From assembly GCA_039794045.1 (NCBI GenBank), contig JBAMLY010000009.1, positions 38,609 through 102,608 of the forward strand: DNA of 64,000 nucleotides, given 5' to 3'. Of this stretch, positions 8,860 to 48,790 are shown piece after piece (position 1 is the first letter of the stretch; each line of letters opens with the position of its first letter). Origin of the DNA: Candidatus Micrarchaeia archaeon (GTDB lineage: Archaea > Micrarchaeota > Micrarchaeia > Norongarragalinales > UBA8480). The translations under genes and the position numbers were made by a program. The notes under the pieces were generated by a model. That model was not told the origin of the DNA, ran no database searches, and saw only the letters and a program-made list of their open reading frames with translations.

Positions 8860-10527
8860 TCAGGAAACAAAGCAGCTCTTCAAGTCCTCCATGACGTTCT
8901 CGTCGCTCAGCCGCGCATCGCATCCTCTGGCGCCGCGGTTGGCAAGGCAATACCATTCCTTGAGTTTTTCAGCAGAAGGAATCTCGCGCACGAGAACCTG
9001 GTTATTTATGAGTACTGCAGGTGCGCCATTTACTCCTGCTTGCGTGACGAAGTCAGCGTCCCTCTCCAGTAAGAACTTGCCTTGCCTTTCAACGCAATCT
9101 GCAATCTTGGTGGCGTTGTAACCAGCTTGCACCGCGCAATCTTGCCATGCCATGGAAGAATTGATTCCGCAAGCAACGTAGGCAGCGAAAGCGCTTGAAT
9201 TAATCGAGAAAGCGCAAGCCTGGCGAGCGTCTTCGTCGAGTTCTGCGGCAGAAGCAGCGTACAAAGAGTTGTTCGCGTAGCGCTTGACAACGAAGCGAAC
9301 GTCAAAAGAAGAGTTTTCAAGAGCGCTGGCAACGTCTCCCACGATCGCCGCCGCCACAGCAGAGGCGGGACACTTTCCCATCGCGAACAAAGTCAGTGAA
9401 TTGTTCTTCGCTTGCCTTTGCAGGAACTTGGAGGGCGCAGTGGAAGCAATTGCTTTCCCGTTCTTGTCCGCGAAAACCAGTGCGGGACTCAACACATAGT
9501 AGCCTCCCACGCTCAACAAGTCGTCTTTAACTTTTTCGTAGCCCTCGCCTTTCTTTACGCTCTCGTCAAAGACAAAGGCTGGAACTCCAGTCAAGCCAAG
9601 GTAGCGCGCCTTGCCTGCGCCAGCAATTGTTGAAACGTCTTCGAATGACGCGTTCAACCCCTTGAAGTAACCTTTTAAAACGCTTACCACTGGCTGCGCG
9701 TCGCAGGGACCACAAGAAGAGTCGGTGAAGACAGTCAAGTTTACTCGTTCTGCCGCGGAGTAAATGCATTTAGCTGAAAGCTTGCCAGCGTCAACGCACT
9801 TGCCAACCGCGCCTTCTCCTGCCGCGCACTCGAAGTCAGCCGAACAAGCTGGAATGCGCGCGCAAGCCTCGTGCGAGGGAATGACGCCGCAAACTGCTTG
9901 CATTACTGAAGTAACGGTTACTGGCTTCTGCAGCAAAGTCGTGTTTACGTAAAGCACTGGCGCGTTGATGGCGCGTACTCTAAGCGCGCTCGCCACGCGA
10001 AAACTCTCTTCAAGCAACTGCTTGCCTTCTTGGCCCTCCGCGCACGCGCTTACCACGTCGTAGTCAACGCCAGTCTGCTTGCCGCAAGTCCTGCCGTCAA
10101 TGCCGTTGGCGCGGCATGCTACAAAATCAAAAAAAATTTCAGGGTAATGTTTTTGAGCGCAAGCTTGCCTGGCGTCCTCGGCGACTTCTTCTTCCCCACC
10201 CTGCGCACGGAAAGCGTAGCCCTCGAATGCCACCACGAAATACATTTGCAGGGAAACATTGGAACCAAATTCTTCGAGGACGCGCTTGACCGCAAGTTCT
10301 GCCTCCTGCGACTTAGAGTCAAGGCCGTTCACGAACAACTCAAGTTTTACTGGCTTGAATTCGTTGTGCTGCTGCGCAACCGGCTCCTTGAACAGGAAAG
10401 CAGCCGCTATGAATAATATTACTATTACTGCCGCGGCCGCGACCCAAACGAGGGCGCCCGACTTCTCTAGCGTGGGCTGTTCCACGCGCTTTTCTGGCTT
10501 GGTTTTTTCCTTTCCTGTTTTCTTCAA
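8860..10527 (-). CDS. Membrane-anchored extracytoplasmic thioredoxin-fold protein with an internal duplication
   Basis: A Lys-rich N-terminus plus one TM helix, then a CGPC thioredoxin active-site motif (VFTDSSCGPCDAQ). The block ARQACA...FVAC appears twice. More than 20 Cys and many N-x-S/T sequons (NVS, NTT, NLT, NAS, NNS, NSS, NAT). Confidence 0.55.
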   Translation of the reverse strand: MKKTGKEKTKPEKRVEQPTLEKSGALVWVAAAAVIVILFIAAAFLFKEPVAQQHNEFKPVKLELFVNGLDSKSQEAELAVKRVLEEFGSNVSLQMYFVVAFEGYAFRAQGGEEEVAEDARQACAQKHYPEIFFDFVACRANGIDGRTCGKQTGVDYDVVSACAEGQEGKQLLEESFRVASALRVRAINAPVLYVNTTLLQKPVTVTSVMQAVCGVIPSHEACARIPACSADFECAAGEGAVGKCVDAGKLSAKCIYSAAERVNLTVFTDSSCGPCDAQPVVSVLKGYFKGLNASFEDVSTIAGAGKARYLGLTGVPAFVFDESVKKGEGYEKVKDDLLSVGGYYVLSPALVFADKNGKAIASTAPSKFLQRQAKNNSLTLFAMGKCPASAVAAAIVGDVASALENSSFDVRFVVKRYANNSLYAASAAELDEDARQACAFSINSSAFAAYVACGINSSMAWQDCAVQAGYNATKIADCVERQGKFLLERDADFVTQAGVNGAPAVLINNQVLVREIPSAEKLKEWYCLANRGARGCDARLSDENVMEDLKSCFVS

Positions 10528-18658: not shown

Positions 18659-18754
18659 GCTTTCTTGAACGCTTGCCGTCTTTAAAACTTGTTTCCTTTT
18701 GATTGCGTTGCTAGCCCAGGCAAGGTTTTAATTGAAGTCCTTCCTTTTAAGCGC

Positions 18755-20164
18755 ATGGCAAAAATTCGCGTGGGCTATCCGTTTCCAGAGTACGTGGTTG
18801 ACGAGCCAGTGCTAGGCAGGGAAGCAAAGCGCTTGCTGGAAAAATTTGTTGGCTTGGCGCAACGCAGGGTTTCAGTGAAAGAGTTTTGCGAGGAATTTGG
18901 CTTGGATGAAGGAGAAGCTGAAGAGTTCCTCAAGAGCTTGGATGTTTCTTCTTTCGGGAAGCCGTTGCCGCGCCAAGAAATGGAGGAAGTTGTCGCGAGC
19001 GCACGCAAAGTAGTTGCTGGGCTATCGGAAGCTGAAACGATTGCGAGGGGCGTGGCGCGCTCTCTCTACGGTTTCAAGGTAGTGCAGCCGTTGTTCGAGG
19101 ACGACGACTTGGAAGAAATAATGGTTAATGGTTTTTCTTCGCCTGTAATCGTGGCACATCGAAAGCATGGTTTATGCAAGACTAACTTGCGGTTCAAGAA
19201 CGAGAGAGAGTATGGGGACTTCTTGGTGCAGGTTTGCGGTGGCTCGGCTGGCGCCGCGTGCGATGTCCGCCTCCCGGATGGAAGCCGTGCTAACGTGGTT
19301 TTCCCGCCTGCGGCAAGCGAAGCAGCGGTTACCGTGCGCAAGTTCCGCCGCCAGCGTTTGAGCTTCGTTGAACTCGTAGAGGAAGGCGTTTTTTCTTCTC
19401 ACTTGGCGGCGTTCTTGTGGCTCTGCATTGAGGGAATGAGGGTTAGGCCGTTGAATGTCCTTTTCGCTGGCGGTACTGCCTCGGGCAAGACTTCTTCTCT
19501 TGACGCATTTTCTTGCTTTATTCCCCCGCACGAGCGAATTATAAGCATTGAGGACACGCGAGAGCTTTCCCTGCCAGGCAAGGAGAACTGGGTTGCGTTG
19601 GAGAAGACTGAAGAACTTGACTTGAACGCCTTGCTGCGCAACTCGCTGAGAATGCGTCCCGACAGGATAATCGTGGGCGAGGTGAGGGGCGCGGAAGCTG
19701 AAACGCTTTTCACGGCAATGAACATTGGGCAGAATGGAGTGCTTGGAACTCTTCACGCTAACAGCGACCGCGATGCCATCCAGCGCTTGGAGGCCGCGCC
19801 AATGAACGTCCCCCGTGACTTGATTCCGTTGCTTGACGTGGTAGTAGTTCAGCACAGGGTTTATGATGGAGGCGAGTTGAAGCGGCGCGTTACGCAAGTG
19901 AGCGAGGTTTCCCGCATTGAGGACAAGATTGCTTTGAATGAAGTGTTCAAGTGGGACGCGGGAAAGGAGAGCGTGGTGCGCACGCAGCAGACGAGCGAGT
20001 TAGTTGAAAAGATTGCTTTGCTGTCCGGCAACCCGATAAGTGCCGTTAACGCCGAGTTAGACCGCCGCCGTGAAATAGTTGACTTCTTGGTTGAAAAAAA
20101 GGTAAAATCGCAGGAGGACGTCACCGAGTTCATGAAAAAGTATTACGCTGAAAGCCTGCCTTGA
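18755..20164 (+). CDS. Type II/IV secretion-family ATPase (FlaI/PilB/TadA-like), orphan paralog; start moved to MAKIRVGY
   Basis: Walker A FAGGTASGKTS, motifs RPDRIIVGEVRG and GTLHANS. Paralogous to the ATPase at 38089. No neighbouring pilin or PilC genes. Confidence 0.8.
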   Translation: MAKIRVGYPFPEYVVDEPVLGREAKRLLEKFVGLAQRRVSVKEFCEEFGLDEGEAEEFLKSLDVSSFGKPLPRQEMEEVVASARKVVAGLSEAETIARGVARSLYGFKVVQPLFEDDDLEEIMVNGFSSPVIVAHRKHGLCKTNLRFKNEREYGDFLVQVCGGSAGAACDVRLPDGSRANVVFPPAASEAAVTVRKFRRQRLSFVELVEEGVFSSHLAAFLWLCIEGMRVRPLNVLFAGGTASGKTSSLDAFSCFIPPHERIISIEDTRELSLPGKENWVALEKTEELDLNALLRNSLRMRPDRIIVGEVRGAEAETLFTAMNIGQNGVLGTLHANSDRDAIQRLEAAPMNVPRDLIPLLDVVVVQHRVYDGGELKRRVTQVSEVSRIEDKIALNEVFKWDAGKESVVRTQQTSELVEKIALLSGNPISAVNAELDRRREIVDFLVEKKVKSQEDVTEFMKKYYAESLP

Positions 20165-36545: not shown

Positions 36546-37652
36546 TTAACGAAAAGGACGCTCGTTGCGCCTCAAGCCAAACAAGGAAGCGCTGAAGCCA
36601 AGCTTGGAGCGAAAGCGCGCTACCTCGTTCTCCAACTCCCGGCCTTCAATCGCGGCACGCAAGTCTGCTTCAATTAATGCAGCGGGATAGCCGTAAGCCC
36701 TGTTGATCGCACTCAAAGAAAAAACAATTGAAGCAACTTTTTCCGCGCCCTCGCGCCCCCCAACTGTTTTCCCTCGCAAGAAGTCCACTCTCAGCGGCCG
36801 GTCAAAAGCAACCGGCTTAACGTAAAACGAGCAAACGCGCTCCGCCCACTTACCCAAGTCGCGCAAGACGCCGTGCTCGGACGGAATTGAAGAGTAAGAA
36901 AAGCAGGCGCTGCGCTCTCCCTCGCCAAGCAAGAAATAAAGAAAAAGCGAGTCCGTCGTGCGCCCAGCCTCTCCAAGCAAGCCCCGCGCTTCAGGAAAAC
37001 AAGAAGCAACTATTGCGGCAAAGTGCTTTGCGCGAGAGTCCTTAACCACTCCAGCCAACAACGCGCCCCTCTCCTCAACCTCGCCGTAAAGCCGCAAATA
37101 CTTTTCAATAACTCGCTCGTATTCACTGAAAACCCTGCTCTCGCGGGGAGGCTTGTCTGCAGTCTGTGGAACAATGCTACCGTCAAGCAACAACACTTGC
37201 GGAGAAAACTTTTTCAGCACTCCCAAAGCGCAGTCCAGTTCCACGCCAAGCCGCTTCAAAGACTTCATCCAAGCCACTTCAAACGGCTCCCACGAGTAAT
37301 TCGCCAGAAACTGCAAAGCAACAAATTTAGAGGGAAAATAGTGGTGCCCGCGAAGGCGTCCTTCGCTGTAGTCGAAGACTGCGGCGGCAGCGCGATAGAA
37401 AAGCAAGTCCAAGCCGTGAAGCTCCACCAACGCAATCCCTCCGTCCACGGCCGCGACTCGCCCGCTGAATTGCTGGCGCTTGACTGGCAAGAACAAGCGC
37501 TCGTCGAAAACCTCGCGCGCCTCAAGCTCCGGGGACTCGCGCAGCCTAGCGCAAAGCCTCGCCTGGCGTTCTTCTAGGTCGCGCAACTTCTTTACTGCTT
37601 CCTCCCAAGAATCCATTCCGCACTCACGAGAAACAAGCTTAAAGAATACCAC
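36546..37652 (-). CDS. nurA: NurA 5'-3' nuclease
   Basis: VAAVDGG and LLLDGSIVPQ motifs, as in the NurA catalytic Asp motifs. Length 368 aa. Immediately downstream of herA. Confidence 0.7.
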   Translation of the reverse strand: MVFFKLVSRECGMDSWEEAVKKLRDLEERQARLCARLRESPELEAREVFDERLFLPVKRQQFSGRVAAVDGGIALVELHGLDLLFYRAAAAVFDYSEGRLRGHHYFPSKFVALQFLANYSWEPFEVAWMKSLKRLGVELDCALGVLKKFSPQVLLLDGSIVPQTADKPPRESRVFSEYERVIEKYLRLYGEVEERGALLAGVVKDSRAKHFAAIVASCFPEARGLLGEAGRTTDSLFLYFLLGEGERSACFSYSSIPSEHGVLRDLGKWAERVCSFYVKPVAFDRPLRVDFLRGKTVGGREGAEKVASIVFSLSAINRAYGYPAALIEADLRAAIEGRELENEVARFRSKLGFSASLFGLRRNERPFR

Positions 37653-37670
37653 GCAAACAAACTATTTTAA

Positions 37671-38036
37671 GTGGTTGGAGTGAGCGAGTTCAAGCAAGCA
37701 ATAATAATTCGCTGCGACCTCGGAATGGGGAAAGGAAAAATGGTGGCGCAAGGAAGCCATGCGTCGCTCCTCGCCTTTGAGGAAGCCCTAAAGAAAAACG
37801 AGGAAGCCGCGCGCGCTTGGCAAGCGAGCGGAAGCAAGAAAATAGTTCTGAGGGCTGCAAGCGAAAAAGAACTCGTCGAACTATACGCTAAAGCAAGGAA
37901 GGCAAGACTGCCTGCAGCGCTCGTAGTTGACGCGGGGCACACGCAAATAGAGGCGGGCACGAAGACCGCAGCTGGCATCGGACCAGCAGAAGAAAGCGCG
38001 CTTGACAAGATCACTGGAAAACTCAGGTTGTTATAG
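37671..38036 (+). CDS. pth2: Peptidyl-tRNA hydrolase Pth2 (archaeal type)
   Basis: 121 aa: KQAIIIRCDLGMGKGKMVAQGSHASL...GIGP, characteristic of Pth2. Confidence 0.85.
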   Translation: MVGVSEFKQAIIIRCDLGMGKGKMVAQGSHASLLAFEEALKKNEEAARAWQASGSKKIVLRAASEKELVELYAKARKARLPAALVVDAGHTQIEAGTKTAAGIGPAEESALDKITGKLRLL

Positions 38037-38088
38037 CGCTGCCACAAAGCTTTTTGAACACTCGCCGCATTCTATTTTTGAGCGCAAA

Positions 38089-39645
38089 ATGGCTTACTTG
38101 GACGAATTGATAGGGAAAGCGAAAGCGCAAAAAAAGGGAGTGGCTGGGCTCACGCCTGGCACGAAAGAACCAGAAAAGCCAGGCGGGCCAGAAAAAGAAA
38201 AAGTGTTGATTGACACTTACGACTCAGTCCACATCTACCGCGTGCCAGGAGAAGCCCTCTACTTCTACGAAGTCCCAACCCCGCGCTACCGCGGCGAAGA
38301 AAAAGCCTTGATTCAAGCCCTCATGGACATCGCAAGCAAAGTAATAGAAAGCGAGCACGAAGTCCCCCGCACTCTAGAGCAAAAGCGTTTCGCTTACAAG
38401 CAAAAAATCCTTGACATAATAGAGTCAACGCCGGAACTCAAAGTGCCGCCTGCCGCTAAAGAATTTTATGCTGACGCGGTAGTGCGCGAGATGGTAGGCT
38501 GGGGCTTGATAGACCCGCTCCTGGAAGACGAGTGGCTTGAAGATGTTATGGTGAACGGCCCAAACCAGCCAGTCTACGTCTTCCACAGGAAATACGACAT
38601 GATGAAGACGAACATAGTCTTCTACGACGACAAAGACATTCGCGACTTGATAGACCGCATCGCGCGCACCATAGGACGCCACATAGACATTCAAACCCCT
38701 TTGCTGGACGCGAGGCTCCCCGACGGAACGCGCGTGAACGCAACAGTGCCGCCAGCGAGCTTGAACGGCTCCACTTTGTCAATAAGAAAGTTCCGCACCG
38801 ACCCAATAACCATAATAGACTTAGTAAACTACGGCACGCTCAACTACGAAGTGGCCGCGTTTCTTTGGCTGGCAGCCGACGGCTTCGGAGCAAAGCCAGC
38901 CAACATGATAATAAGCGGCGGCACGGCAAGCGGGAAGACGACGCTATTGAACGTCATCTCGTCACTGGTGCCGAACAGCGAGCGCGTCATCACAATAGAA
39001 GACACTGCTGAACTCAACTTGCCGCTGGAGCAATGGGTTCGCTTTGAAACAAGGCCTCCTGGCGTGGAGGGCGGCGGCGAACTCACGATGGACATGCTGT
39101 TAAAGAACTCGCTGCGCATGAGGCCAGACCGCATCATTGTCGGCGAAATCCGGGGAGAGGAAGGACACACTCTTTTCTCGGCGATGAACACAGGACACGA
39201 CGGCTGCCTTGGAACGCTTCACGCAAACAGCGCGCGTGAAACCCTCATTCGCCTCAGCAACCCGCCAATCAACGTTCCCCTCATAATGCTTTCTTCCCTC
39301 AACTTCATCATAATGGAGCAGAGAATCAATGACCGCCGCAAGGGACTCATTCGCCGCATCACGGAAATAGCGGAAGTGATTTCAGTAGAGGAAAACAAGA
39401 TGCCCGAACTCCAAGTAATCTATCAATGGGACCCCGCAAAAGACGTCCTGCAAAGCACTGGAATGAATCCCTTGTACTTCCAAGTACTGCAGCGCTACAC
39501 GGCCTACACCAAGGACGTCATAGAAGAAGAACTCAAAAACCGCGCCAACATATTGAGGGAACTAAACTCGCGTGGCGTGCGCAGCCTCTCTGACGTGTGC
39601 GCCGTAACCCACAACTACATCTTGCGCACTCAAGGAAAACTGTGA
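38089..39645 (+). CDS. Type IV pilus assembly ATPase (FlaI/PilB/TadA-like); start moved to MAYLDEL
   Basis: Walker A ISGGTASGKTT, Asp/His boxes (RPDRIIVGEIRG, GTLHANS). It heads a locus with PilC-like genes and many prepilins. Confidence 0.85.
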   Translation: MAYLDELIGKAKAQKKGVAGLTPGTKEPEKPGGPEKEKVLIDTYDSVHIYRVPGEALYFYEVPTPRYRGEEKALIQALMDIASKVIESEHEVPRTLEQKRFAYKQKILDIIESTPELKVPPAAKEFYADAVVREMVGWGLIDPLLEDEWLEDVMVNGPNQPVYVFHRKYDMMKTNIVFYDDKDIRDLIDRIARTIGRHIDIQTPLLDARLPDGTRVNATVPPASLNGSTLSIRKFRTDPITIIDLVNYGTLNYEVAAFLWLAADGFGAKPANMIISGGTASGKTTLLNVISSLVPNSERVITIEDTAELNLPLEQWVRFETRPPGVEGGGELTMDMLLKNSLRMRPDRIIVGEIRGEEGHTLFSAMNTGHDGCLGTLHANSARETLIRLSNPPINVPLIMLSSLNFIIMEQRINDRRKGLIRRITEIAEVISVEENKMPELQVIYQWDPAKDVLQSTGMNPLYFQVLQRYTAYTKDVIEEELKNRANILRELNSRGVRSLSDVCAVTHNYILRTQGKL

Positions 39646-39657
39646 GGCCTTCAGTGA

Positions 39658-40797
39658 ATGCCTGAAAGCAAGCTGGAAAAAATAAAGCGCGCCGTGGAAA
39701 AAACAGAGCTTGAAACCCGCGCCGAAGTCTTGAAGGAAGAAGAGCTGGCGCGCCGCCGCGAACTCGACGAAATAATCGCAAAACTCAAGGAAAAACAAAA
39801 AAAAGGTTTTGTGGCAGAAAAGCGGCTGGAAAAAATAAAGGAGCACGTAGAAGAAAAACCAGAAATAAGCGAGGAAGAAACCAAGGCAGCAATCCGCTTG
39901 CAAGTAAGCAAGACGAAGGGAGTAGGCTGGTTTTACTCTTCCCTGCAAAAACCCATAACTTCAGTGTCAAAAGTTTTCTCTGTTATTCCAGTCGCAAAAA
40001 ACTTGAAGAAAGAACTCGCAAGCGCAGACATGCACATCACGCCAGAAGCCTACCTCGCCCTAACTACCACGGTCTCCGTCATAGCCGCAATAACTACTTG
40101 GATTGCCGCAGGCATTCTAGCGACTAGCTTGAGTAACTTGAGTGTAATAGAAATAGCTTCATCTATCTCGCTTGCCTTCGTTGGAGCAGTGCTGGCGTTC
40201 TTCGGGGTTTCTGCAGTCGCGCTCGCTTACCCTTCAATTCGCGCGTCCGAGCGAGCAAACAAAATAGACAAGGAACTGCCGTTCGCGTTGCGCCACCTCG
40301 CCACTCAACTCAAGGCCGGCGTGAGCCTCAACCGCGCAATGCGGTCAGTCGCGGACGCCAACTACGGCGCACTCACGCAAGAGTTCAGAAAAACGCTCGC
40401 TGACTTGGAGAGCGGCTTGAGCACGGAAGACGCGTTATTGAAGCTTGCAGACCGCAACCGCTCTCGAGGCCTAAAGCGCGCGGTAGTGCAAATAACGCGC
40501 GCGATCAGGACGGGCGGAAACCTCGCCGAAATAATTTCATCCATAGCAGACGACATCTCGTTTGAGTCCCGCATGAAAATACGCGACTTCACGGAAATGC
40601 TGAACATAATAAGCATAGTCTACATAATGGTAGGAGTAGTCGCGCCAGTAATGATAACCATTCTGTCCGCCGTAGCCCAGCTGCCAGTGTTCGGTGGCGG
40701 GATAGCATTCGGATTAGTGCTCGCAGTGTTCGCGGGAATAGTGGGCGCTACTGGCGCCCTCATCTTCCTAATCAAGAGACTAGAACCAGTAGCGTGA
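39658..40797 (+). CDS. Type IV pilus platform membrane protein (TadC/FlaJ/PilC-like)
   Basis: 379 aa with a coiled-coil N-terminus, then TM helices and a GspF/TadC-like cytoplasmic segment (LPFALRHLATQLKAGVSLNRAMRSVAD). Follows the ATPase. Confidence 0.65.
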   Translation: MPESKLEKIKRAVEKTELETRAEVLKEEELARRRELDEIIAKLKEKQKKGFVAEKRLEKIKEHVEEKPEISEEETKAAIRLQVSKTKGVGWFYSSLQKPITSVSKVFSVIPVAKNLKKELASADMHITPEAYLALTTTVSVIAAITTWIAAGILATSLSNLSVIEIASSISLAFVGAVLAFFGVSAVALAYPSIRASERANKIDKELPFALRHLATQLKAGVSLNRAMRSVADANYGALTQEFRKTLADLESGLSTEDALLKLADRNRSRGLKRAVVQITRAIRTGGNLAEIISSIADDISFESRMKIRDFTEMLNIISIVYIMVGVVAPVMITILSAVAQLPVFGGGIAFGLVLAVFAGIVGATGALIFLIKRLEPVA

Positions 40798-40801
40798 AAA
40801 A

Positions 40802-41845
40802 ATGACTTCGCTTTCGCAGCAGTGGGAAAACTTGAAGCGCTACTATGCGGCAACCGGCTTCCGAATAAGCCTGCCTGCCTTCATGGCGGTGATGCTGGCT
40901 TTCGCGGCAATAGCTGCCATGGCAAGCCTTGCGTTAATTCAACTCTTGCCGCCGGACTTGAAGCAGAACGCCCCCATAGTCGCGGCAGCATGCTTTGCAG
41001 CAATAATTTCGTTAATCATAGGCATTCCCGTTACGATCAGAAACAACCGCATTTCAGCAATAGAAAATAACTTGCCTGACGCGCTCAAGCACATGGCTTT
41101 AGTATTAAAGGCAGGCGGAACCACTGAAGCCGCGCTAGAAGAAGTGGCGAACGCAGACTACGGCCCACTCAGCGCAGACCTCAAAATTGGCTTGAAGGGC
41201 TTGAAGGAAGGAAAGCCGTTCGACGACGTGCTCCGCGAAACCGCAATAAACACTGGCTCGGTGTTGTTCAACAGGACTAGCGCAATAATGGTTGACGCGC
41301 GCCGCGCTGGCGCTGGCTTGGCAGATGTCATGAACGCGGTGGGAGACGACGCGCGAGACATTCTCCGCATCGGGCGCGAGCGAAAGAGTAGGACGATGAT
41401 GCACGTAATGTTCCTAATAATTTCAGGGTTGTTTCTCTCGCCATTCATTTTCGGCTTCACGATGAGCATTGTTTCCTTCATGTCTTCCGGAATTGCAGTG
41501 AGCGGCACAGGGCTCGGCGAAAGCGGGAGCACCGTCAACATGACAATCGCAGACTGCAGGGTTCCCTGCCTCATTCAAACCGACCCAGTAATGGCTGGCT
41601 TTCTCGCGGCCGGCCTTGCTCCCTTGAACACCGTAAAGCCATTGTACGAGTGGAGGCTCAACGCAATGGACCAGCTTTTAATGGTTTTCCTCGCAATAGT
41701 TTCAATAGTCACGCTCGTAGCAATAGGAGTTATAAGGGAAGGAAAACTGTTCAAGTACGTGCTTTACTTCCCCTTCGCCATACTCGCAGTAATAGTAATA
41801 TATTTGGCTGGAAAAATATTCAGTGGATTCATTATTGGGTCGTGA
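40802..41845 (+). CDS. Second TadC/FlaJ/PilC-like platform membrane protein
   Basis: 347 aa, paralogous in layout (LPDALKHMALVLKAGGTTEAALEEVANADYG). Tandem with the 39658 gene, as split PilC halves would be. Confidence 0.65.
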   Translation: MTSLSQQWENLKRYYAATGFRISLPAFMAVMLAFAAIAAMASLALIQLLPPDLKQNAPIVAAACFAAIISLIIGIPVTIRNNRISAIENNLPDALKHMALVLKAGGTTEAALEEVANADYGPLSADLKIGLKGLKEGKPFDDVLRETAINTGSVLFNRTSAIMVDARRAGAGLADVMNAVGDDARDILRIGRERKSRTMMHVMFLIISGLFLSPFIFGFTMSIVSFMSSGIAVSGTGLGESGSTVNMTIADCRVPCLIQTDPVMAGFLAAGLAPLNTVKPLYEWRLNAMDQLLMVFLAIVSIVTLVAIGVIREGKLFKYVLYFPFAILAVIVIYLAGKIFSGFIIGS

Positions 41846-41849
41846 AAAA

Positions 41850-41951
41850 ATGAGGGCGCAAACAGCAATAGAATACCTTCTCTTGATAGCGATGGCGGTT
41901 GTCGCGGTAACCGCCATAACTTACTTCGTGAAAACGGTTTTGTCGCGGTGA
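41850..41951 (+). CDS. Minipilin (33 aa) with class III signal peptide; absent from the ORF track
   Basis: MRA|QTAIEYLLLIAMAVVAVTAITYFVKTVLSR, with Q+1 and E+5. I found it by reading the sequence, and it is below the ORF-track size cutoff. Confidence 0.45.
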   Translation: MRAQTAIEYLLLIAMAVVAVTAITYFVKTVLSR

Positions 41952-41958
41952 AAGAAAA

Positions 41959-42165
41959 ATGGATGAAAAAGCACAGGGAGCATTCGAGTACATTTTAATG
42001 CTGGCAGGCATTCTCTTGATCGTGGTCGTAATAATAATGGTGGTGAAGTCCAACATTCTCTCGCCGGCCACAGGGACAGTAGAACAAACAACTGGTCAAT
42101 ACCAGCAAACCACTAACTGTAGTGACTTGAACGCTTCAACGCTGCAGGAATGCTTGAACAAATAA
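41959..42165 (+). CDS. Short pilin (68 aa), class III signal peptide MDEKA|QGAFEY
   Basis: The signal peptide and helix are nearly identical to the four major pilin paralogs, but the C-terminal part is short (2 Cys, sequons NCS, NAS). Confidence 0.6.
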   Translation: MDEKAQGAFEYILMLAGILLIVVVIIMVVKSNILSPATGTVEQTTGQYQQTTNCSDLNASTLQECLNK

Positions 42166-42179
42166 GGAAGGTGAAAAAA

Positions 42180-42602
42180 ATGGGTTTTGCGCCGCGAAAG
42201 GGACAGGGAGCCTTCGAGTACATATTATTGCTCGCTGGCATTCTCTTAATAGTAGTAATCGTAATAATAGTCCTCAAAAGCGGTTTGACGCAGCAGTCGA
42301 GCACGAACATTGGAGAGTCAAGCGAGAAAATCCGCGTGAACGCGGCAGTGCGGTGCCTAGACTTCTGCGGCGACGGCGCGTGGGCTTGGGTAAAGTCAGC
42401 TAACTCGTCGATAACGCTTCAATACAACTCTTCTTGCCCGATTGCCGCAGGACTCAATGGAACTCCTAATTGCTTCTGGACTGGAAGCGACAACGCCGTC
42501 GGCTGCAACGCCACGTGGTCTACTGGAAGCAGCGTCTACGCCAACACTCCGCCCAACAACGCGAAATTCTGTCAGTTGGCGCAGCAGAGCTCGAGCAGCT
42601 GA
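42180..42602 (+). CDS. Major pilin paralog 1 (class III signal peptide, 6-Cys framework)
   Basis: MGFAPRKG|QGAFEYILLLAGILLIVV, then CLDFCGDGAW and C..NC..GCNAT..FC. Sequons NSS, NSS, NGT, NAT. RBS AGGAAGGTG upstream. Confidence 0.75.
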   Translation: MGFAPRKGQGAFEYILLLAGILLIVVIVIIVLKSGLTQQSSTNIGESSEKIRVNAAVRCLDFCGDGAWAWVKSANSSITLQYNSSCPIAAGLNGTPNCFWTGSDNAVGCNATWSTGSSVYANTPPNNAKFCQLAQQSSSS

Positions 42603-42610
42603 GCGCCACC

Positions 42611-42643
42611 CCTCTTTTTATTTTTATTCAAACTATTTTTTTC
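42611..42643 (+). promoter_or_regulatory. AT/T-rich intergenic element (TTTTTATTTTTATT): putative TATA/BRE promoter for pilin paralog 2 and T-rich terminator for paralog 1
   Basis: This is the only AT-rich stretch between the two pilin ORFs and lies about 20-30 nt upstream of the ATG at 42644. Confidence 0.35.
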
Positions 42644-43081
42644 ATGCCACGAAAACGCGGGCAAGGAGCTTTTGAATACATCTTGTTAGTCGCAGGCATT
42701 CTGTTAATCGTGGTCGTCGTCGTCTTGCTCTTGAAGTCAGGCGTAGTGCAAGGCGCGCAGAAAAACGTTGGCGAAAGCAGTGGAAGGCTTTCCGTGAACA
42801 GCAAGATAAGCTGCCTAGATTTCTGCGGCGAAGGGGCTTGGAGTTACGTGGCGAACGCCGAGCCAAGCGCGCGCGTGACGCCTTACGTTGACGCGTGCAC
42901 TCTCGCGGAAGGAGTGAACGGCAACGCTTCCTGTTTTTACGGTGAAAGCGACGCGGCTGCGCGCGACGGCGCCTACCATTACTGGTGCAACGCATCCAAC
43001 GTGACTGGAATGCAGAAGTACGCAAACACGCGTCCCAACAACCAGTTGTTCTGCGGCTACGTGCGCGAAAACGCTCCCTGA
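42644..43081 (+). CDS. Major pilin paralog 2; start moved to MPRKRG|QGAFEY
   Basis: Same signal peptide; CLDFCGEGAW, AC..SC..WCNAS..FCGYV. Sequons NAS, NAS, NVT. Confidence 0.75.
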   Translation: MPRKRGQGAFEYILLVAGILLIVVVVVLLLKSGVVQGAQKNVGESSGRLSVNSKISCLDFCGEGAWSYVANAEPSARVTPYVDACTLAEGVNGNASCFYGESDAAARDGAYHYWCNASNVTGMQKYANTRPNNQLFCGYVRENAP

Positions 43082-43099
43082 AAAGAATTTATATCGCGG

Positions 43100-43588
43100 T
43101 TGATTATTGGCTTAAACGGTTTGAGAGAGATTAAATTGAGAATTCCAGAGTTTGGGAAAAGAGGCCAGGGAGCCTTTGAATACATTTTGCTCGTCGCAGG
43201 CATTCTGCTCATCGTCGTGCTCGTCATACTACTCCTAAAGGGCGGGCTGGTGTCGCAAAGCGGTGCCAACGTGGCCGAGTCAGGCGAGAAAGCACGCATA
43301 AACAGCGAAATAAATTGCCTGCAATTCTGTGGCGCTGGCGCGTGGAAGTACATAACGCCAAATGCGAAGGGTAATTACACTAATTGCACTGTAAGAGAAG
43401 GAATAACCGGCAATCCGGCGTGCTTCTGGAACGCCAGCACTGGCGACACGGCAACCTGCAACGTCACTGCAGTTCTCATCGAGGCAGGCTATACTCCATC
43501 CGAGGCAGCAAAATACTACAATGTAACGCCCGCCAACACTGACTTCTGCGGCTACGTAAGGCAGACCGCCAAGGAAAGCACGAGGTAA
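43100..43588 (+). CDS. Major pilin paralog 3 (start uncertain: TTG at 43100, 43121 or 43136)
   Basis: ...EFGKRG|QGAFEYILLVAGILLIVV; CLQFCGAGAW, NC..AC..TCNVT..FCGYV. Sequons NYT, NCT, NAS, NVT, NVT. A TTTATAT box sits at about 43088. Confidence 0.7.
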   Translation: MIIGLNGLREIKLRIPEFGKRGQGAFEYILLVAGILLIVVLVILLLKGGLVSQSGANVAESGEKARINSEINCLQFCGAGAWKYITPNAKGNYTNCTVREGITGNPACFWNASTGDTATCNVTAVLIEAGYTPSEAAKYYNVTPANTDFCGYVRQTAKESTR

Positions 43589-43686
43589 GCAACGCGACCC
43601 ACCCGTGACTTTAAAAAAGCCACGAAATTTATTTTTAAAGAAGTGAACGCCTTCGAGGCGTTAAAAAGAATGGAGGGAAAAAGAAA

Positions 43687-44157
43687 ATGGTGCCCACCTT
43701 GAATTTAAAAAAGAAGAAAGGGCAGGGAGCCTTCGAGTACATCTTGCTCGTCGCAGGCATTCTGCTCATCGTAGTAATCGTGGTCTTCCTGTTGAAGGGA
43801 GGACTGCAAGCGCAAGCCGGAAGCGGCGGTGTAGTAAGCACGAGCACGGAAAAAATCAACATCAACGTGGAAAGCCAGTGCTTGGACTTCTGCGGCCCGG
43901 GCGCTTGGGCAGCGTACGGAGTGCAAAACAGTGACTTCGCAAACACTAATTGCACTCTCGCCGAAGGAGTAAACGGCAACAGCAGCTGCTACTACTCTGC
44001 AACCACTATAGGCAATAACGGCTTATGTAACGCGACTTACGTCTTAAAGCCCGGCGTTGCGCAAAGCAAGGGCTTACTGAACTCAAGTGGCGCCACGGTA
44101 GTACACCCGCAGAACACGCAGTTCTGCACTTACGTGCGCCAAGCAAGAGCAGGCTAG
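43687..44157 (+). CDS. Major pilin paralog 4
   Basis: MVPTLNLKKKKG|QGAFEYILLVAGILLIVV; CLDFCGPGAW, NC..SC..LCNAT..FCTYV. Sequons NCT, NSS, NAT, NSS. GGAGGG RBS upstream. Confidence 0.75.
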   Translation: MVPTLNLKKKKGQGAFEYILLVAGILLIVVIVVFLLKGGLQAQAGSGGVVSTSTEKININVESQCLDFCGPGAWAAYGVQNSDFANTNCTLAEGVNGNSSCYYSATTIGNNGLCNATYVLKPGVAQSKGLLNSSGATVVHPQNTQFCTYVRQARAG

Positions 44158-44235
44158 AACTTCCCGCTTTTCCCCCTTTTTTTATTTCTTCTTTTCCCTA
44201 AACCTTTTTATTGAAGGCGGGCCTGCAATAAAGTC

Positions 44236-44406
44236 ATGGACGAGCGAGCGCAGACCGCCACTGAGTACTTGCTTATTCTAGCGCTTGGCCTCGTCTTGCT
44301 CGGCGTCGTGCTCGCCATGGCTTTGCGCCTCCGCGACTTCAGCAACGTCTTGACCGGCCGCGTGGCAGAAGAAAGAAACAATACCTTGTCGATGCTAGTC
44401 AGCTGA
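44236..44406 (+). CDS. Minipilin (56 aa) with class III signal peptide; absent from the ORF track
   Basis: MDERA|QTATEYLLILALGLVLLGVVLAMAL.... The start mirrors the ORFs at 1846 and 41959. Confidence 0.5.
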   Translation: MDERAQTATEYLLILALGLVLLGVVLAMALRLRDFSNVLTGRVAEERNNTLSMLVS

Positions 44407-44439: not shown

Positions 44440-45492
44440 ATGCAGTACGCCTTGCCGGCATTAGTGGCAGCAGCTTTTGCTTGCACTGCAACAGTGTGGG
44501 ACTTGAGGAAGCGCTTGATTCCCAACGCGTTAAACTATTCATTTCTCGCCGCGGGGGCGGCGCTGGCGCTAGCGCAAGGAATTTTTTCTGTGGGTTACGT
44601 CGGACTAGTTGCGTTGTCTTTTGCTTTCGCTTATGCTTTGTACAAGGCAGGCGTTTGGGCTGGGGGAGACGCAAAGTTTTTCACGGCGCTCTCGTCTTTC
44701 CTGCCTTTCTTTTGGCAAGTACCGTTGACTGGCTGGAACGTTTTCTCTTTCCTAGCAATATTTTTTTACTCGGTGGCAGCAGGAGTGCCTGTCACTCTCC
44801 TCGCTTGCGCGCCAAAGCTGTGGTTGTTGCGTGGCGAGCTCGCTTCGCTCTTGCGCGCAGCAGCGCCGCGCGCTTTCTCGGCAGCGCTTGCTTCAGCGGC
44901 GGTTGCCTTTGCGTTGCAAAAGTTTTTCGCGCTCGTTCCACAAGCTGGTTGGGTTGCCTCGGCAGCCGCAGTCGTGTTTTTGTTGGCGGCGCGCGTGCCG
45001 CTAGCGGTTTCTGCGGCCGTCTTCGTTGCCGCTCTCGCGCTAGACCCGTTGAACTCGCTTGAGTTGTTTGCTGGCGCGCTCGCGGTCTCGTGGCTTGCGT
45101 TGTTCGCGTGGCAGGCGCTCGCGCTTGCCAGGAACAAGGTTTTGCGCCGCCACGTGAGAGTAGACGAGTTAGAAGAGGGAATGATTCCGGCTTACTCTGT
45201 GGTCGTTGACGAGAGCGGAAGAGCGCGGGAGTTGAGAACGCCTGGCTTAAAGGAGTTGCTTGCCGCCGCGGGAAAGGCTGATGCTGCCGCGCTGGCGCGG
45301 TTGCTCAAGCCACGGGAAAGAATAGTCGCGGACTCCAGGCTAGCTCGTGGTTTGAGTGAGACAGAGATAAAGGAATTAAAGGCGCTTGGAGTAAAGAGTT
45401 TGGTTGTCCGCGAGTCCATCGCGTTCGCGCCAGTAATGGTTGCTGGGTTCGCGTTGGCGGCTTTGCTGGGAGTGAAGTGGCTTGGCTTTTAA
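44440..45492 (+). CDS. Prepilin/preflagellin peptidase (A24 family, FlaK/PibD/EppA-like)
   Basis: First catalytic Asp in DLRKRLIPN, second in GGDAKFF, and a polytopic membrane topology. At 350 aa it has a long hydrophobic C-terminal extension. Confidence 0.8.
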   Translation: MQYALPALVAAAFACTATVWDLRKRLIPNALNYSFLAAGAALALAQGIFSVGYVGLVALSFAFAYALYKAGVWAGGDAKFFTALSSFLPFFWQVPLTGWNVFSFLAIFFYSVAAGVPVTLLACAPKLWLLRGELASLLRAAAPRAFSAALASAAVAFALQKFFALVPQAGWVASAAAVVFLLAARVPLAVSAAVFVAALALDPLNSLELFAGALAVSWLALFAWQALALARNKVLRRHVRVDELEEGMIPAYSVVVDESGRARELRTPGLKELLAAAGKADAAALARLLKPRERIVADSRLARGLSETEIKELKALGVKSLVVRESIAFAPVMVAGFALAALLGVKWLGF

Positions 45493-45916
45493 GAGAGGAC
45501 AGTTGGGAATAGAGTTTTTCTTGGTGGTGGCGTTCGTGCTTGTTCTCGGCAGCGTCTTGAGTGCTTCCGTGGACGAGCAAGTCATTGCCGCGAGGGCCTT
45601 AGACAGGGCTGCGCTAGCGAAAAGCGCGGTGGATGCAGTGTCTCACGCAATAAACCTCGTCACGCTGGAAGGCAACGGGGCTCTTGCCAGCAGAGAAGTT
45701 TTCTTTCCAGCTGAAACGCAGTGCATCCAGTACAGCAGCGCACGCAAGGCGCTTTACTGCGATGTCGCGGGAGCAGGCAAGGTTTACGGCGTAGCGCTTT
45801 ACCGCGAGCCGACAGTGTTACTGAATTGTTTTTCTTCAGGCACTCAAGGCTGGTTCCTTGTGACCGTGAATGGAACCAGCAATGGAGCGCAAGTTAATTG
45901 TACTAAACTGGGTTGA
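45482..45916 (+). CDS. Pilin-like protein (class III signal peptide MAFKRG|QLGIEFF), TTG start
   Basis: Q+1 and E+5, a hydrophobic helix and 3 Cys. It overlaps the peptidase stop by 11 nt. Confidence 0.6.
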   Translation: MAFKRGQLGIEFFLVVAFVLVLGSVLSASVDEQVIAARALDRAALAKSAVDAVSHAINLVTLEGNGALASREVFFPAETQCIQYSSARKALYCDVAGAGKVYGVALYREPTVLLNCFSSGTQGWFLVTVNGTSNGAQVNCTKLG

Positions 45917-45922
45917 AGTTGT

Positions 45923-46312
45923 TTGCGGGGGCAAGCTTTTTCAGAGTATTTGCTCGTCGTCGCCTTCATCGTGGCGCTGGCGGCGTTCTTCGTGCTTCCA
46001 GGCGCCCACCAAACAGAGGTGACGATGGGCTTGGCTGGCGCGCGCCTGGGTTGCGCGGAATACTCTGCAATTGAAAACTCTTCAGTTTACTGCACAGAGT
46101 TTTCTTACGCGGCAAGCGGACCGAACTTGACTATTTATCCCAAGGTGTTCGACTTGCAAGGCAAAAGAGTCACGGACTTGCCTGGAAGTTTTTACGCGCG
46201 AGTAATTTCAGGCATCGCAGGAAACATTTTAAACAACCGGAGTTTTTCTTGCGTTAACTGTATTTCGTGTTGGGTGGGGCACTACAATTACTGTGTTAAC
46301 GCGACGAGTTGA
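45923..46312 (+). CDS. Pilin-like protein (class III signal peptide MRG|QAFSEYLL), TTG start
   Basis: Q+1 and E+5, 6 Cys, sequons NSS, NLT, NRS, NAT. Confidence 0.6.
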   Translation: MRGQAFSEYLLVVAFIVALAAFFVLPGAHQTEVTMGLAGARLGCAEYSAIENSSVYCTEFSYAASGPNLTIYPKVFDLQGKRVTDLPGSFYARVISGIAGNILNNRSFSCVNCISCWVGHYNYCVNATS

Positions 46313-48373: not shown

Positions 48374-48790
48374 ATGGTGCGCGCCCAACTGTCAATTGAA
48401 TTGTTTTTTGCTTTAGCATTGTTTTTCCTGGTGCTTTCGTGGGTGTCAAACTATGCTTCCACTGTCTATGACTCGCCAGCCCTCGTTTACACGCAGGAAA
48501 AAGCGGTAGCCAACTCACTGGTTGCCGCCGCGAACGCAGCCTGCGCTTCAAACACTTCGTCTTCTTTTTATTTGCCCTGCATTTCCAAGCGCGGCACAAA
48601 CTACGACTACGAGGCATTCAACGCGACCTCTAACTCGCCCGAGTTGCGAGTGCGCGTTCCAGCCCTGAACTCGTTCGCGCAAGCCAGGGCCTTGTGCCCA
48701 ATTTCAGGTTACGCCTCGGCTGAATGCGGGACTCTCGTGTGCATGAAAAGTAATTCTTCGTCAGTGTTGCTGAAAAACGGTGCTTGTTGA
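48374..48790 (+). CDS. Pilin-like secreted protein (class III signal peptide MVRA|QLSIELFF)
   Basis: Q+1 and E+5, 7 Cys, sequons NTS, NAT, NSS. Confidence 0.55.
   Translation: MVRAQLSIELFFALALFFLVLSWVSNYASTVYDSPALVYTQEKAVANSLVAAANAACASNTSSSFYLPCISKRGTNYDYEAFNATSNSPELRVRVPALNSFAQARALCPISGYASAECGTLVCMKSNSSSVLLKNGAC

What the first reader, a model, noticed from the sequence alone, without database searches (positions are those of the whole stretch)
42180..44157. Tandem array of four paralogous pilins: invariant signal peptide, conserved six-cysteine framework and hypervariable sequon-rich core
Four consecutive genes (140-162 aa) begin ...[KR]G|QGAFEYILL[LV]AGILLIVV, and about 60 bp of DNA is repeated at roughly 80% identity in each copy and in the short pilin upstream. 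All four contain C-L-[DQ]-F-C-G-x-G-A-W, then four further Cys at conserved spacing. The fourth Cys is always followed by an N-[AV]-[ST] sequon, and the tail ends F-C-[GTQ]-[YL]-[VA]. The sequence between the cysteines differs almost completely between copies. This points to a disulfide-stabilised, probably N-glycosylated pilin scaffold whose exposed loops have diversified by duplication, consistent with variable adhesins or antigenic and phage-receptor variation. Each copy has its own RBS and AT-rich upstream element, so they may be individually expressed.
Basis: seen in the sequence. Interest (0 to 1): 0.8.

Follow-up and report, generated by a model that had tools for sequence, protein, structure and literature searches.

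The report
Four cysteine-rich pilins of a Micrarchaeon
Four neighbouring genes in a tiny symbiotic archaeon (Micrarchaeota) encode related pilus subunits with the same assembly helix and a new six-cysteine head domain; this is an ordinary kind of system, but the heads are the fastest-changing part of the pilus locus between close strains.

Summary
Window 42180-44157 holds four tandem class III signal-peptide pilins (PF04021). They lie inside a complete, syntenically conserved Epd/Tad-like ("system 1") archaeal type IV pilus operon of a Ca. Micrarchaeia (Norongarragalinales) MAG: ATPase, two platform proteins, short pilins, and an A24 peptidase with an Arc_PepC domain.

All six Cys and the C-x3-C-G-x-G-A-W motif are invariant in about 20 distinct homologues, all from Micrarchaeota. 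The head has no Pfam, PDB or fold match.

Corrections:
- The conserved sequon follows the fifth Cys, not the fourth.
- The C3-C4 and pre-C6 segments are conserved, so the core is not uniformly hypervariable.
- The duplications are old. Synonymous sites are saturated, and P1-P3 orthologues occur in the same order in another species.

Relatives carry one or two copies. Three other assemblies carry the same four, so this is not an artefact.

New result: among four strains over 99.7% identical, P4 has 16 nucleotide substitutions, all amino-acid-changing, plus a codon deletion. The rest of the 7.5 kb has 2 nonsynonymous and 8 synonymous changes (Fisher P = 3e-5). The changes lie in inter-cysteine loops and remove three of four sequons. 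Two other lineages show similar divergence at these genes.

Disulfides, glycosylation and expression remain untested. This is a new member of a known kind, of moderate interest.

The parts
38002..39645 (+). Pilus assembly ATPase (T2SSE / FlaI-TadA-like). The likely start is 38089, as called in the sister MAGs (518 aa).
   Evidence: Pfam PF00437 E=3.6e-48. NCBIfam gives FlaI and TadA family matches below the equivalog cut-offs. Synteny is shown.
39658..40797 (+). Platform membrane protein 1 (T2SSF, TadB/C-like)
   Evidence: PF00482 E=1.1e-25
40802..41845 (+). Platform membrane protein 2 (T2SSF)
   Evidence: PF00482 E=5.1e-17
41850..41951 (+). 33-aa minimal Flp-like pilin (MRA|QTAIEYLLL...), with no head domain
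   Evidence: PF04021 E=7e-6. A 33-41 aa gene sits at this position in every syntenic locus that covers it.
41959..42165 (+). 68-aa short pilin with the same N-terminal helix as P1-P4 (QGAFEYILMLAGILLIVV), two Cys and two sequons. It is the candidate major subunit (inference).
   Evidence: PF04021 E=1.6e-6. It is 85% identical to its orthologue in L016. Its size matches the 74-aa major pilin of M. maripaludis (PMC3875500).
42180..42602 (+). P1, a cysteine-rich pilin (140 aa). It is orthologous to P0004 and to the L004 gene. One amino-acid polymorphism (V71A) is seen among strains.
42644..43081 (+). P2, a cysteine-rich pilin (145 aa). It has no SD site. The TATA-like run at 42615-42628 is placed so that transcription would start close to the ATG, suggesting a leaderless mRNA. 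The mature protein is invariant among strains.
43136..43588 (+). P3, a cysteine-rich pilin (150 aa from TTG 43136; alternative TTG starts at 43121 and 43100). The mature protein is invariant among strains.
43687..44157 (+). P4, a cysteine-rich pilin (156 aa). Its head (43940-44143) is a hotspot of amino-acid replacement between strains.
44236..44406 (+). 56-aa Flp-like pilin candidate (MDERA|QTATEYLLIL...), conserved in all syntenic loci
   Evidence: Sequence. It is 100% identical between L002 and L015. There is no Pfam match.
44440..45492 (+). Prepilin peptidase, A24 family, with the archaeal C-terminal domain (EppA-like)
   Evidence: PF01478 E=3.4e-11 and PF06819 Arc_PepC E=1.7e-6
45482..46312 (+). 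Two further pilin-like genes (144 aa, RG|QLGIEFFLVV; 129 aa, RG|QAFSEYLLVV)
   Evidence: Sequence motifs. Conserved in synteny. No Pfam match.

Best explanation
P1-P4 are four paralogous subunits of one Epd/Tad-like archaeal type IV pilus.

Proposed pathway:
1. Each is made as a preprotein. Its short basic leader is cut after Gly by the adjacent A24/Arc_PepC peptidase, leaving Gln+1, Glu+5 and Tyr+6 (inferred from motifs and neighbourhood).
2. The near-identical hydrophobic helix is shared with the 68-aa short pilin. It lets all of them enter the same filament core, built by the ATPase and the two platform proteins encoded upstream (inferred).
3. The Micrarchaeota-specific head of about 105-120 aa is held by six invariant cysteines. 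These probably form three disulfides, and the head probably carries N-glycans (both inferred).
4. The head is the exposed part. It most likely acts as an adhesive or recognition surface for the host cell or substrate of this episymbiont.

By size and position they resemble the minor pilins EpdA-C of Methanococcus maripaludis, with the 68-aa gene as the likely major subunit (inferred).

Evolution (shown): the array arose by old tandem duplication in one sub-lineage, and relatives have one or two copies. P1-P3 are maintained as distinct conserved paralogues. The loops of P4, and of the homologous genes in other lineages, are replaced rapidly between close strains. This includes loss of glycosylation sequons.

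This is the pattern expected for a surface determinant under diversifying selection from viruses that use pili, from partner specificity or from grazers. The selecting agent is unknown.
For: Pilin identity and operon:
- PF04021 matches all four proteins. The locus also has PF00437, two PF00482 genes, and PF01478 with PF06819.
- The gene order PTH2-ATPase-platform-platform-33 aa-about 70 aa-[Cys pilin]n-56 aa-peptidase is conserved wherever the contig reaches: in L001 and L002, partly in L003-L005, and in the near-identical strains L006, L007 and L017.

Framework:
- Six Cys, G-x-G-[AS]-W and P-x-N are invariant or nearly so in all homologues.
- The confident blocks of the AF2 model (pLDDT 77-85) coincide with the conserved Cys segments. 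The low-confidence blocks (52-54) coincide with the variable loops.

Old, stable paralogues:
- pS is 0.54-0.78 in every segment, including the N-terminal helix.
- L016 keeps the P1-P2-P3 order, with nominal dN/dS of 0.09-0.15.

Copy number is 1-2 elsewhere and 4 here.

Diversification:
- Across four strains, P4 has 16 N and 0 S changes plus one codon deletion. The other genes in 36700-44157 have 2 N and 8 S. Fisher P = 2.9e-5; clustering P = 2e-12.
- N88D, T117K and N132D remove sequons.
- L001 vs L014: the pilin has 4.5 N / 0.5 S against 6 N / 16 S in the other genes, P = 0.014.
- L002 vs L015: machinery proteins are 96-100% identical, but the two Cys pilins are 69% and 53% identical.

Precedents:
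- In M. maripaludis the major pilin is 74 aa, the minor pilins EpdA-C are 130-156 aa, and EppA substrates have Gln at +1 (PMC3875500).
- System 1 loci with two platform genes occur in DPANN (bioRxiv 10.64898/2026.04.22.720090).
- A locus of this group was reported in the Micrarchaeon Mia14 (PMC5498576).
Against: - No expression, proteomic or imaging data exist, so assembly into a filament, cleavage, disulfides and glycans are all inferred.
- The minor-versus-major assignment rests only on size analogy and on the presence of the 68-aa pilin.
- P2, P3 and P4 have their own TATA-like elements. This fits separate expression as alternative major subunits at least as well.
- The structure models are of low confidence (pLDDT 67-69), and Cys pairing could not be read out.
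- No AglB gene lies in the window.
- The counts behind the selection tests are small. Part of the L002/L015 divergence could be allele replacement by recombination rather than point mutation.
Confidence: 0.6

Rival explanations
1. Alternative major pilins. Each of P1-P4 can by itself form the filament shaft, and the cell switches or mixes them through separate promoters. This would give pili with different surface and adhesion properties. It is the first reader's view and matches Haloferax volcanii PilA1-6.
For: - The N-terminal helix is identical in all four.
- TATA-like elements precede P2, P3 and P4, and T-rich tracts follow P1 and P4.
- In H. volcanii, six pilins with an almost identical H-domain each form functional pili with different adhesion (PMC4371748).
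Against: - A short 68-aa pilin with the same helix sits directly upstream and is conserved in every locus that covers this position. Its size is that of the known Epd major pilin (PMC3875500).
- Relatives manage with one copy.
- No invertible or slippage-prone switch was found within the genes.
Confidence: 0.25
2. Surface-anchored class III proteins that are not filament subunits. The helix would serve only as a membrane anchor for a secreted cysteine-rich binding domain, as in the Sulfolobus bindosome substrate-binding proteins.
For: - P0021 carries the same six-Cys domain on an unrelated N-terminal transmembrane anchor with no class III motif.
Against: - The genes have a fixed position between the short pilins and the prepilin peptidase in every locus.
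- The helix is conserved to the residue with the short pilin (87% aa identity against 40% in the head). This is expected for co-assembly, not for a mere anchor.
Confidence: 0.08
3. Programmed hypermutation of P4 by a diversity-generating retroelement or similar system, rather than selection on ordinary mutations.
For: The changes are confined to about 200 bp at the 3' end of one gene and are all nonsynonymous. From my own knowledge, DGRs are frequent in DPANN archaea.
Against: - No template-like repeat of 43900-44160 exists anywhere in the 64 kb window.
- No reverse transcriptase was found among the 20 largest other ORFs.
- The varying sites show no adenine-specific pattern.
- The variant residues do not match the paralogues either, so gene conversion is also unlikely.
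Confidence: 0.03
4. The four copies are an assembly artefact of one gene.
For: None found, apart from a contig (L017) that ends exactly at the end of P4.
Against: - The copies are only 43-54% identical in protein and 52-56% in DNA.
- The same array is present in three other assemblies at over 99.7% identity.
- The P1-P2-P3 order recurs in a different species.
Confidence: 0.01

Closest known systems
Methanococcus maripaludis Epd pili (major pilin EpdE/MMP1685; minor pilins EpdA, EpdB, EpdC; peptidase EppA)
   Same: - Class III signal peptide ending in Gly, with Gln at +1 and Glu at +5.
- A dedicated A24 peptidase with the archaeal C-terminal domain, encoded in the pilin cluster.
- Two platform-protein genes.
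- A short pilin of about 70 aa alongside pilins of 130-156 aa.
- N-glycosylated pilins in the model organism (PMC3875500, PMC4371748).
   Different: - Here the ATPase, platform genes, pilins and peptidase are in one operon.
- The pilins also carry Tyr at +6 (the Flp 'EY' motif), which M. maripaludis pilins lack.
- The six-Cys head is found only in Micrarchaeota by every sequence search run. No direct comparison with EpdA-C was run.
- The paralogues are clearly derived from one another by tandem duplication.
Haloferax volcanii adhesion pilins PilA1-PilA6
   Same: Several paralogous pilins share an almost identical hydrophobic N-terminal domain but have different exposed parts and different adhesion properties (PMC4371748).
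   Different: The PilA genes are scattered and are not co-regulated with the assembly genes. They belong to a different pilus subsystem. Neither a cysteine framework nor Gln at +1 is mentioned for them in the passages of PMC4371748 that were read.
Bacterial Tad/Flp pili (Flp, TadE, TadF, TadV)
   Same: Two platform proteins (TadB/TadC), a TadA-like ATPase, a G|xxxxEY processing motif, and very short head-less pilins (the 33-, 56- and 68-aa genes here). [quoted passage not shown]
   Different: P1-P4 have a large head that Flp pilins lack. The peptidase here is of the archaeal type with Arc_PepC.
Pilins as virus receptors in Sulfolobus islandicus (pilA1/pilA2) and the Pyrobaculum arsenaticum pilus
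   Same: Archaeal pilins govern susceptibility to viruses. According to its abstract, deletion of the S. islandicus pilins pilA1 and pilA2 confers resistance to SSV9 (PMC7217056; abstract only read). This gives a plausible selective agent for the loop and sequon changes seen in P4. The preprint 10.64898/2026.04.22.720090 describes the P. arsenaticum pilin as having cysteines that form bonds, and its filaments as serving as attachment sites for archaeal viruses.
   Different: These are different pilus subsystems and unrelated pilin heads. No virus of Micrarchaeota is linked to this locus.

Membership tests
Archaeal type IV pilin (class III signal peptide, Pfam PF04021/DUF361) | Short charged leader ending in G/A/S, immediately followed by a hydrophobic stretch of about 20 residues | tested here: met
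   PF04021 scores 30.6-33.1 bits against a cut-off of 23.7 for all four proteins. The motif [KR]G|QGAFEYILL[LV]AGILLIVV is seen.
Archaeal type IV pilin (class III signal peptide, Pfam PF04021/DUF361) | Encoded with, or dependent on, an A24 prepilin peptidase, an assembly ATPase and a platform protein | tested here: met
   PF01478+PF06819, PF00437 and two PF00482 genes lie in the same operon. This arrangement is conserved in every related locus whose contig reaches those genes.
Archaeal type IV pilin (class III signal peptide, Pfam PF04021/DUF361) | Actual cleavage and incorporation into a filament | not testable with these tools
   This needs N-terminal sequencing or mass spectrometry of pili.
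Epd-like pilus, 'system 1' (Makarova classification as used in bioRxiv 10.64898/2026.04.22.720090) | One ATPase plus two platform-protein genes, a dedicated EppA-type peptidase and many pilins, with Gln at +1 | tested here: met
   Searches give the domains, and searches show 9-10 class III-like ORFs. Gln +1 is present in all. arCOG assignment was not run.
Flp/Tad-type pilin | G|xxxxEY motif and a very short mature protein (about 40-60 aa) without a head | tested here: not met
   The E5-Y6 motif is present, but mature P1-P4 are 132-144 aa with a head domain. The 33-, 56- and 68-aa neighbours do fit.
Disulfide-stabilised, N-glycosylated pilin head | Cysteines paired in space; sequons occupied | not testable with these tools
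   The Cys are invariant. The models have pLDDT 67-69 and no coordinates are returned. A membrane-anchored thioredoxin-like protein with a CGPC motif lies in the window. No AglB was found in the window.
Neisseria-type pilE/pilS antigenic variation | One expressed gene plus promoter-less, 5'-truncated silent cassettes that donate tracts by gene conversion | tested here: not met
   All four copies are full-length, with start codon and signal peptide. The paralogues are about 50% identical with saturated pS. The P4 variants do not match the paralogue residues.
Diversity-generating retroelement target | Template repeat near the variable region, reverse transcriptase, adenine-specific changes | tested here: not met
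   There is no repeat of 43900-44160 in the window, no RT among the 20 largest ORFs, and mixed base changes. The rest of the genome was not seen.

The most novel reading that the evidence does not exclude
The cysteine-rich pilin head is the partner- or virus-recognition determinant of these episymbiotic Micrarchaeota. Strains would stay almost clonal elsewhere but differ at this one small surface domain, including gain and loss of glycan sites. The four-copy array would be a repertoire in which three copies are fixed tools and the last is the currently contested one. This would give a sequence-level handle on host or virus specificity in an uncultured DPANN lineage, carried by a fold with no known relative.
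Probability: 0.3. Interest if true: 0.6.

Novelty: new member of a known kind. Interest (0 to 1): 0.42.

Why it matters
Micrarchaeota and other DPANN archaea live attached to other cells, and how they recognise and hold a partner is largely unknown. This locus points to a small, lineage-specific pilin head as the most rapidly changing part of an otherwise conserved pilus machine. That makes it a concrete candidate for a specificity or virus-receptor determinant. The idea can be tested by metagenome read mapping, metaproteomics and cryo-EM. The locus also shows archaeal pilins that carry the full Flp 'EY' motif next to head-less pilins of 33-68 aa. This is relevant to the proposed archaeal origin of bacterial Tad pili. 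The general design is already known: several pilins with a shared assembly helix and different heads.

Tried and rejected
Synonymous sites are saturated in every segment (pS 0.54-0.78), so this is uninformative. I replaced it with comparisons between near-identical strains.
- **Recent gene conversion as the cause of the conserved 5' DNA.** Rejected: pS in the helix-coding part is 0.65, the same as elsewhere.
- **Gene conversion from P1-P3 into P4.** Rejected.
- **DGR.** No template repeat or RT in the window.
- **Disulfide pairing.** It could not be read because no coordinates are returned.
- **Wider family search.** A profile of the heads against 1.84 billion representatives gave 9 hits, two of them spurious repeat proteins. 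A second profile search added nothing. Motif scans found 3 species among GTDB representatives and 5 JGI contigs.
- **Exact-match search for a P4-specific 33-mer in JGI metagenomes.** It found nothing.
- **Lookup of P0029.** No record was found.
- **NCBIfam.** No match for the pilins.
Full report
**1. What is in the sequence**

Between 42180 and 44157 the + strand carries four consecutive ORFs:
- P1, 42180-42602, 140 aa.
- P2, 42644-43081, 145 aa.
- P3, 43136-43588, 150 aa. The frame is open from 43100, and there are TTG candidates at 43100, 43121 and 43136.
- P4, 43687-44157, 156 aa.

Each begins with a short basic leader ending in [KR]G, followed by QGAFEYILL[LV]AGILLIVV. Each matches Pfam PF04021 (Class III signal peptide) above the curated cut-off. 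The 68-aa gene just upstream (41959-42165) has the same helix.

Every protein has exactly six cysteines: C-L-[DQ]-F-C-G-x-G-A-W, then four more. The tail is F-C-[GTQ]-[YL]-[VA].

Four points need correction:
- The conserved N-[AV]-[ST] sequon follows the fifth cysteine, not the fourth.
- Only the C1-C2 and C3-C4 spacings are fixed.
- The core is not uniformly variable. Mean pairwise identity is 16% (W..C3), 55% (C3..C4), 24% (C4..C5) and 44% (C5..C6), against 87% in the helix and 85% in the CLDFCGxGAW block.
- Shine-Dalgarno-like sites precede only P1 and P4. TATA-like AT-rich elements precede P2, P3 and P4 (read by eye).

**2. Context**

The four genes sit in one operon-like block of a type IV pilus system. 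In order it contains:
- a PTH2 gene;
- a T2SSE ATPase (38002-39645);
- two T2SSF platform genes (39658-40797 and 40802-41845);
- a 33-aa and a 68-aa pilin;
- P1-P4;
- a 56-aa pilin-like gene;
- an A24 prepilin peptidase with the archaeal Arc_PepC domain (44440-45492);
- two more pilin-like genes.

The nearest database proteins are named 'class III signal peptide-containing protein' from Candidatus Micrarchaeia or Norongarragalinales MAGs.

One ATPase, two platform genes, a dedicated peptidase and many pilins with Gln at +1 are the hallmarks of the Epd-like 'system 1'. That system is described for methanogens and some DPANN (bioRxiv 10.64898/2026.04.22.720090). A locus of that group was already noted in the Micrarchaeon Mia14 (PMC5498576).

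**3. The family**

The head domain is rare:
- A profile of the four heads against 1.84 billion representative proteins gave nine hits at E <= 1e-3. Two of them are unrelated repeat proteins.
- The word-indexed searches of 5.8 billion clusters gave about 15 full-length relatives. A profile search added none.
- Motif scans found three species among 185,579 GTDB representatives and five JGI metagenome contigs.
- All named sources are Micrarchaeota.

Across about 20 distinct sequences at 25-45% identity, the six Cys, G-x-G-[AS]-W and P-x-N are invariant or nearly so. A sequon lies within two residues of the fifth Cys in 18 of the 20.

There is no Pfam family for the head and no NCBIfam match. No PDB sequence relative was found.

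One homologue (P0021) has the same domain on a different, non-pilin membrane anchor.

**4. Origin of the array**

The syntenic locus is found in other Micrarchaeota with one copy (L001, L004) or two copies (L002, L003, L005, L015) of the cysteine-rich pilin. Four copies occur only in this lineage.

The four-copy array is present, at over 99.7% DNA identity, in three other assemblies: L006 = GCA_049972335.1, L007 = GCA_049969435.1 and L017 = GCA_049699115.1. An assembly artefact is therefore excluded.

Between the paralogues, synonymous differences are saturated in every segment, including the helix (pS 0.54-0.78). Two conclusions follow:
- The duplications are old.
- The conserved 5' DNA reflects protein-level constraint, not recent gene conversion.

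A more distant relative (L016) keeps the order 68-aa pilin, P1, P2, P3 up to the contig end. Its orthologues are 71%, 77% and 86% (N-terminal part only) identical. The platform protein and the short pilin are 85-86% identical. In a neighbour-joining tree P1 pairs with its orthologue P0004 (98% bootstrap). P2-P4 have no partner outside this group.

The paralogues are thus stable, individually conserved genes. They are not a shuffling cassette set.

**5. Variation between close strains (the new result)**

Four strains were aligned over 36700-44157 (7.5 kb, over 99.7% identical). P4 carries 16 nucleotide substitutions. All change the amino acid, affecting 14 codons, and there is also a one-codon deletion. 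All the other genes in the stretch together carry 2 nonsynonymous and 8 synonymous changes. The N/S contrast gives Fisher P = 2.9e-5. The clustering gives binomial P = 2e-12.

In the longer window-versus-L007 comparison (19 genes, 11 kb), P4 has 10.5 N and 0.5 S differences. The rest has 3 N and 2 S.

Twelve of the fourteen replaced codons lie in the W..C3, C4..C5 and C5..C6 loops or the tail. The other two are K9E in the leader and V49A in the linker before C1. None touches a cysteine or a conserved block.

N88D, T117K and N132D destroy three of the four sequons of P4, including the 'conserved' one after the fifth Cys.

The mature P2 and P3 proteins are identical in all strains, carrying only synonymous changes. 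P1 has one replacement.

The variant residues do not copy the paralogues. No template-like repeat or reverse transcriptase exists in the window.

Two independent lineages behave alike:
- L001 vs L014 (99.5% identical): the single pilin has 4.5 N and 0.5 S against 6 N and 16 S elsewhere (P = 0.014). One change removes a sequon.
- L002 vs L015: machinery proteins are 96-100% identical, but the two cysteine-rich pilins are 69% and 53% identical, with sharp boundaries at the heads.

**6. Interpretation**

Shown:
- These are class III signal-peptide proteins in a complete pilus operon.
- The head is a conserved cysteine framework with variable loops.
- The array is old and real.
- The heads are hotspots of amino-acid change between close relatives.

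Inferred:
- Cleavage by the adjacent peptidase at G|Q.
- Co-assembly with the 68-aa pilin through the shared helix.
- Three disulfides.
- N-glycosylation.
- An adhesive or recognition role.

By analogy with M. maripaludis, I favour a role as head-bearing minor or decorating subunits on a shaft made of the short pilin. There the major pilin is 74 aa and the minor pilins EpdA-C are 130-156 aa, all with Gln at +1 and cut by EppA (PMC3875500).

The main rival is that each copy is an alternative major pilin under its own promoter. This is the case for H. volcanii PilA1-6, which share an almost identical H-domain and differ in adhesion (PMC4371748). The data here cannot separate the two readings.

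The agent selecting for change is unknown. Viruses that use pili are documented in Sulfolobus islandicus, where deletion of pilA1 and pilA2 confers resistance to SSV9 (PMC7217056, abstract only read). Partner specificity is the other obvious candidate.

**7. Novelty and score**

Already known:
- The system type.
- The principle of several pilins with one assembly helix and different heads.
- Variable surface-exposed pilin parts.

New:
- The Micrarchaeota-restricted six-cysteine head family.
- Its lineage-specific expansion to four.
- The strain-level evidence that it is the fastest-evolving element of the locus, with sequon turnover.

I rate it a new member of a known kind, with interest about 0.4.

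Noticed in passing
window 41850-41951 (+): A 33-aa pilin (MRA|QTAIEYLLLIAMAVVAVTAITYFVKTVLSR). The mature protein would be about 30 aa, essentially only the assembly helix, with the Flp-type E5-Y6 motif. A gene of 33-41 aa sits at this position in every syntenic locus that covers it. As far as I know, it would be shorter than any characterised pilin.
   Followed up: partly
L001 2570-7354; L003 1-2806: In two related Micrarchaeota the pilus ATPase gene carries inteins with LAGLIDADG endonuclease domains: two in L001 (product 1594 aa) and at least one in L003. The window's ATPase (518-547 aa) has none.
   Followed up: no
window 8860-10527 (-): A 555-aa protein with an N-terminal membrane anchor and extracytoplasmic thioredoxin-like domains, including a CGPC motif. 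It is itself rich in Cys and sequons. It is a possible extracellular disulfide oxidoreductase or isomerase, which could be relevant to the six-Cys pilins.
   Followed up: partly
protein P0021 (Logan contig of 1215 bp): The same six-cysteine domain is attached to a different N-terminal transmembrane segment without a class III motif. The head is therefore not strictly tied to pilins.
   Followed up: no
window 44158-44235 (around 44175); L001 10451-10475: The C/T-rich tract between the last cysteine-rich pilin and the 56-aa gene is length-polymorphic between near-identical strains in two lineages (3 bp here, 12 bp in L001 vs L014). It may be a slippage-prone terminator or promoter region.
   Followed up: no
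window 43646-43662: A perfect 7-bp inverted repeat (AACGCCT tcg AGGCGTT) lies between the TATA-like element (43626-43640) and the Shine-Dalgarno site (43672-43676) of P4. It could be an operator or a 5'-UTR hairpin.
   Followed up: no
window 18689-20164 (+): A second T2SSE-family ATPase (PF00437, E=2.6e-35) lies 18 kb upstream. It suggests a second type IV filament system, as reported for the Micrarchaeon Mia14.
   Followed up: no
window 48374-48790 (+) and 2115-1846 (-): Two further ORFs have class III-like N-termini (MVRA|QLSIELFF..., MDEKA|QVSAELIIII...). They lie outside the core operon.
   Followed up: no
L017 (GCA_049699115.1 contig JBNAXX010000003.1), end at 7853: This contig stops three bases before the end of P4, leaving out only the stop codon. 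That would fit an assembly break caused by strain heterogeneity at this gene.
   Followed up: no
window 43117 and 43128: The window differs from the three other strains at two sites in the stretch upstream of the 43136 start of P3. One of them would be E>G if translation began at 43100 or 43121. This favours 43136 as the start, or a non-coding leader.
   Followed up: no
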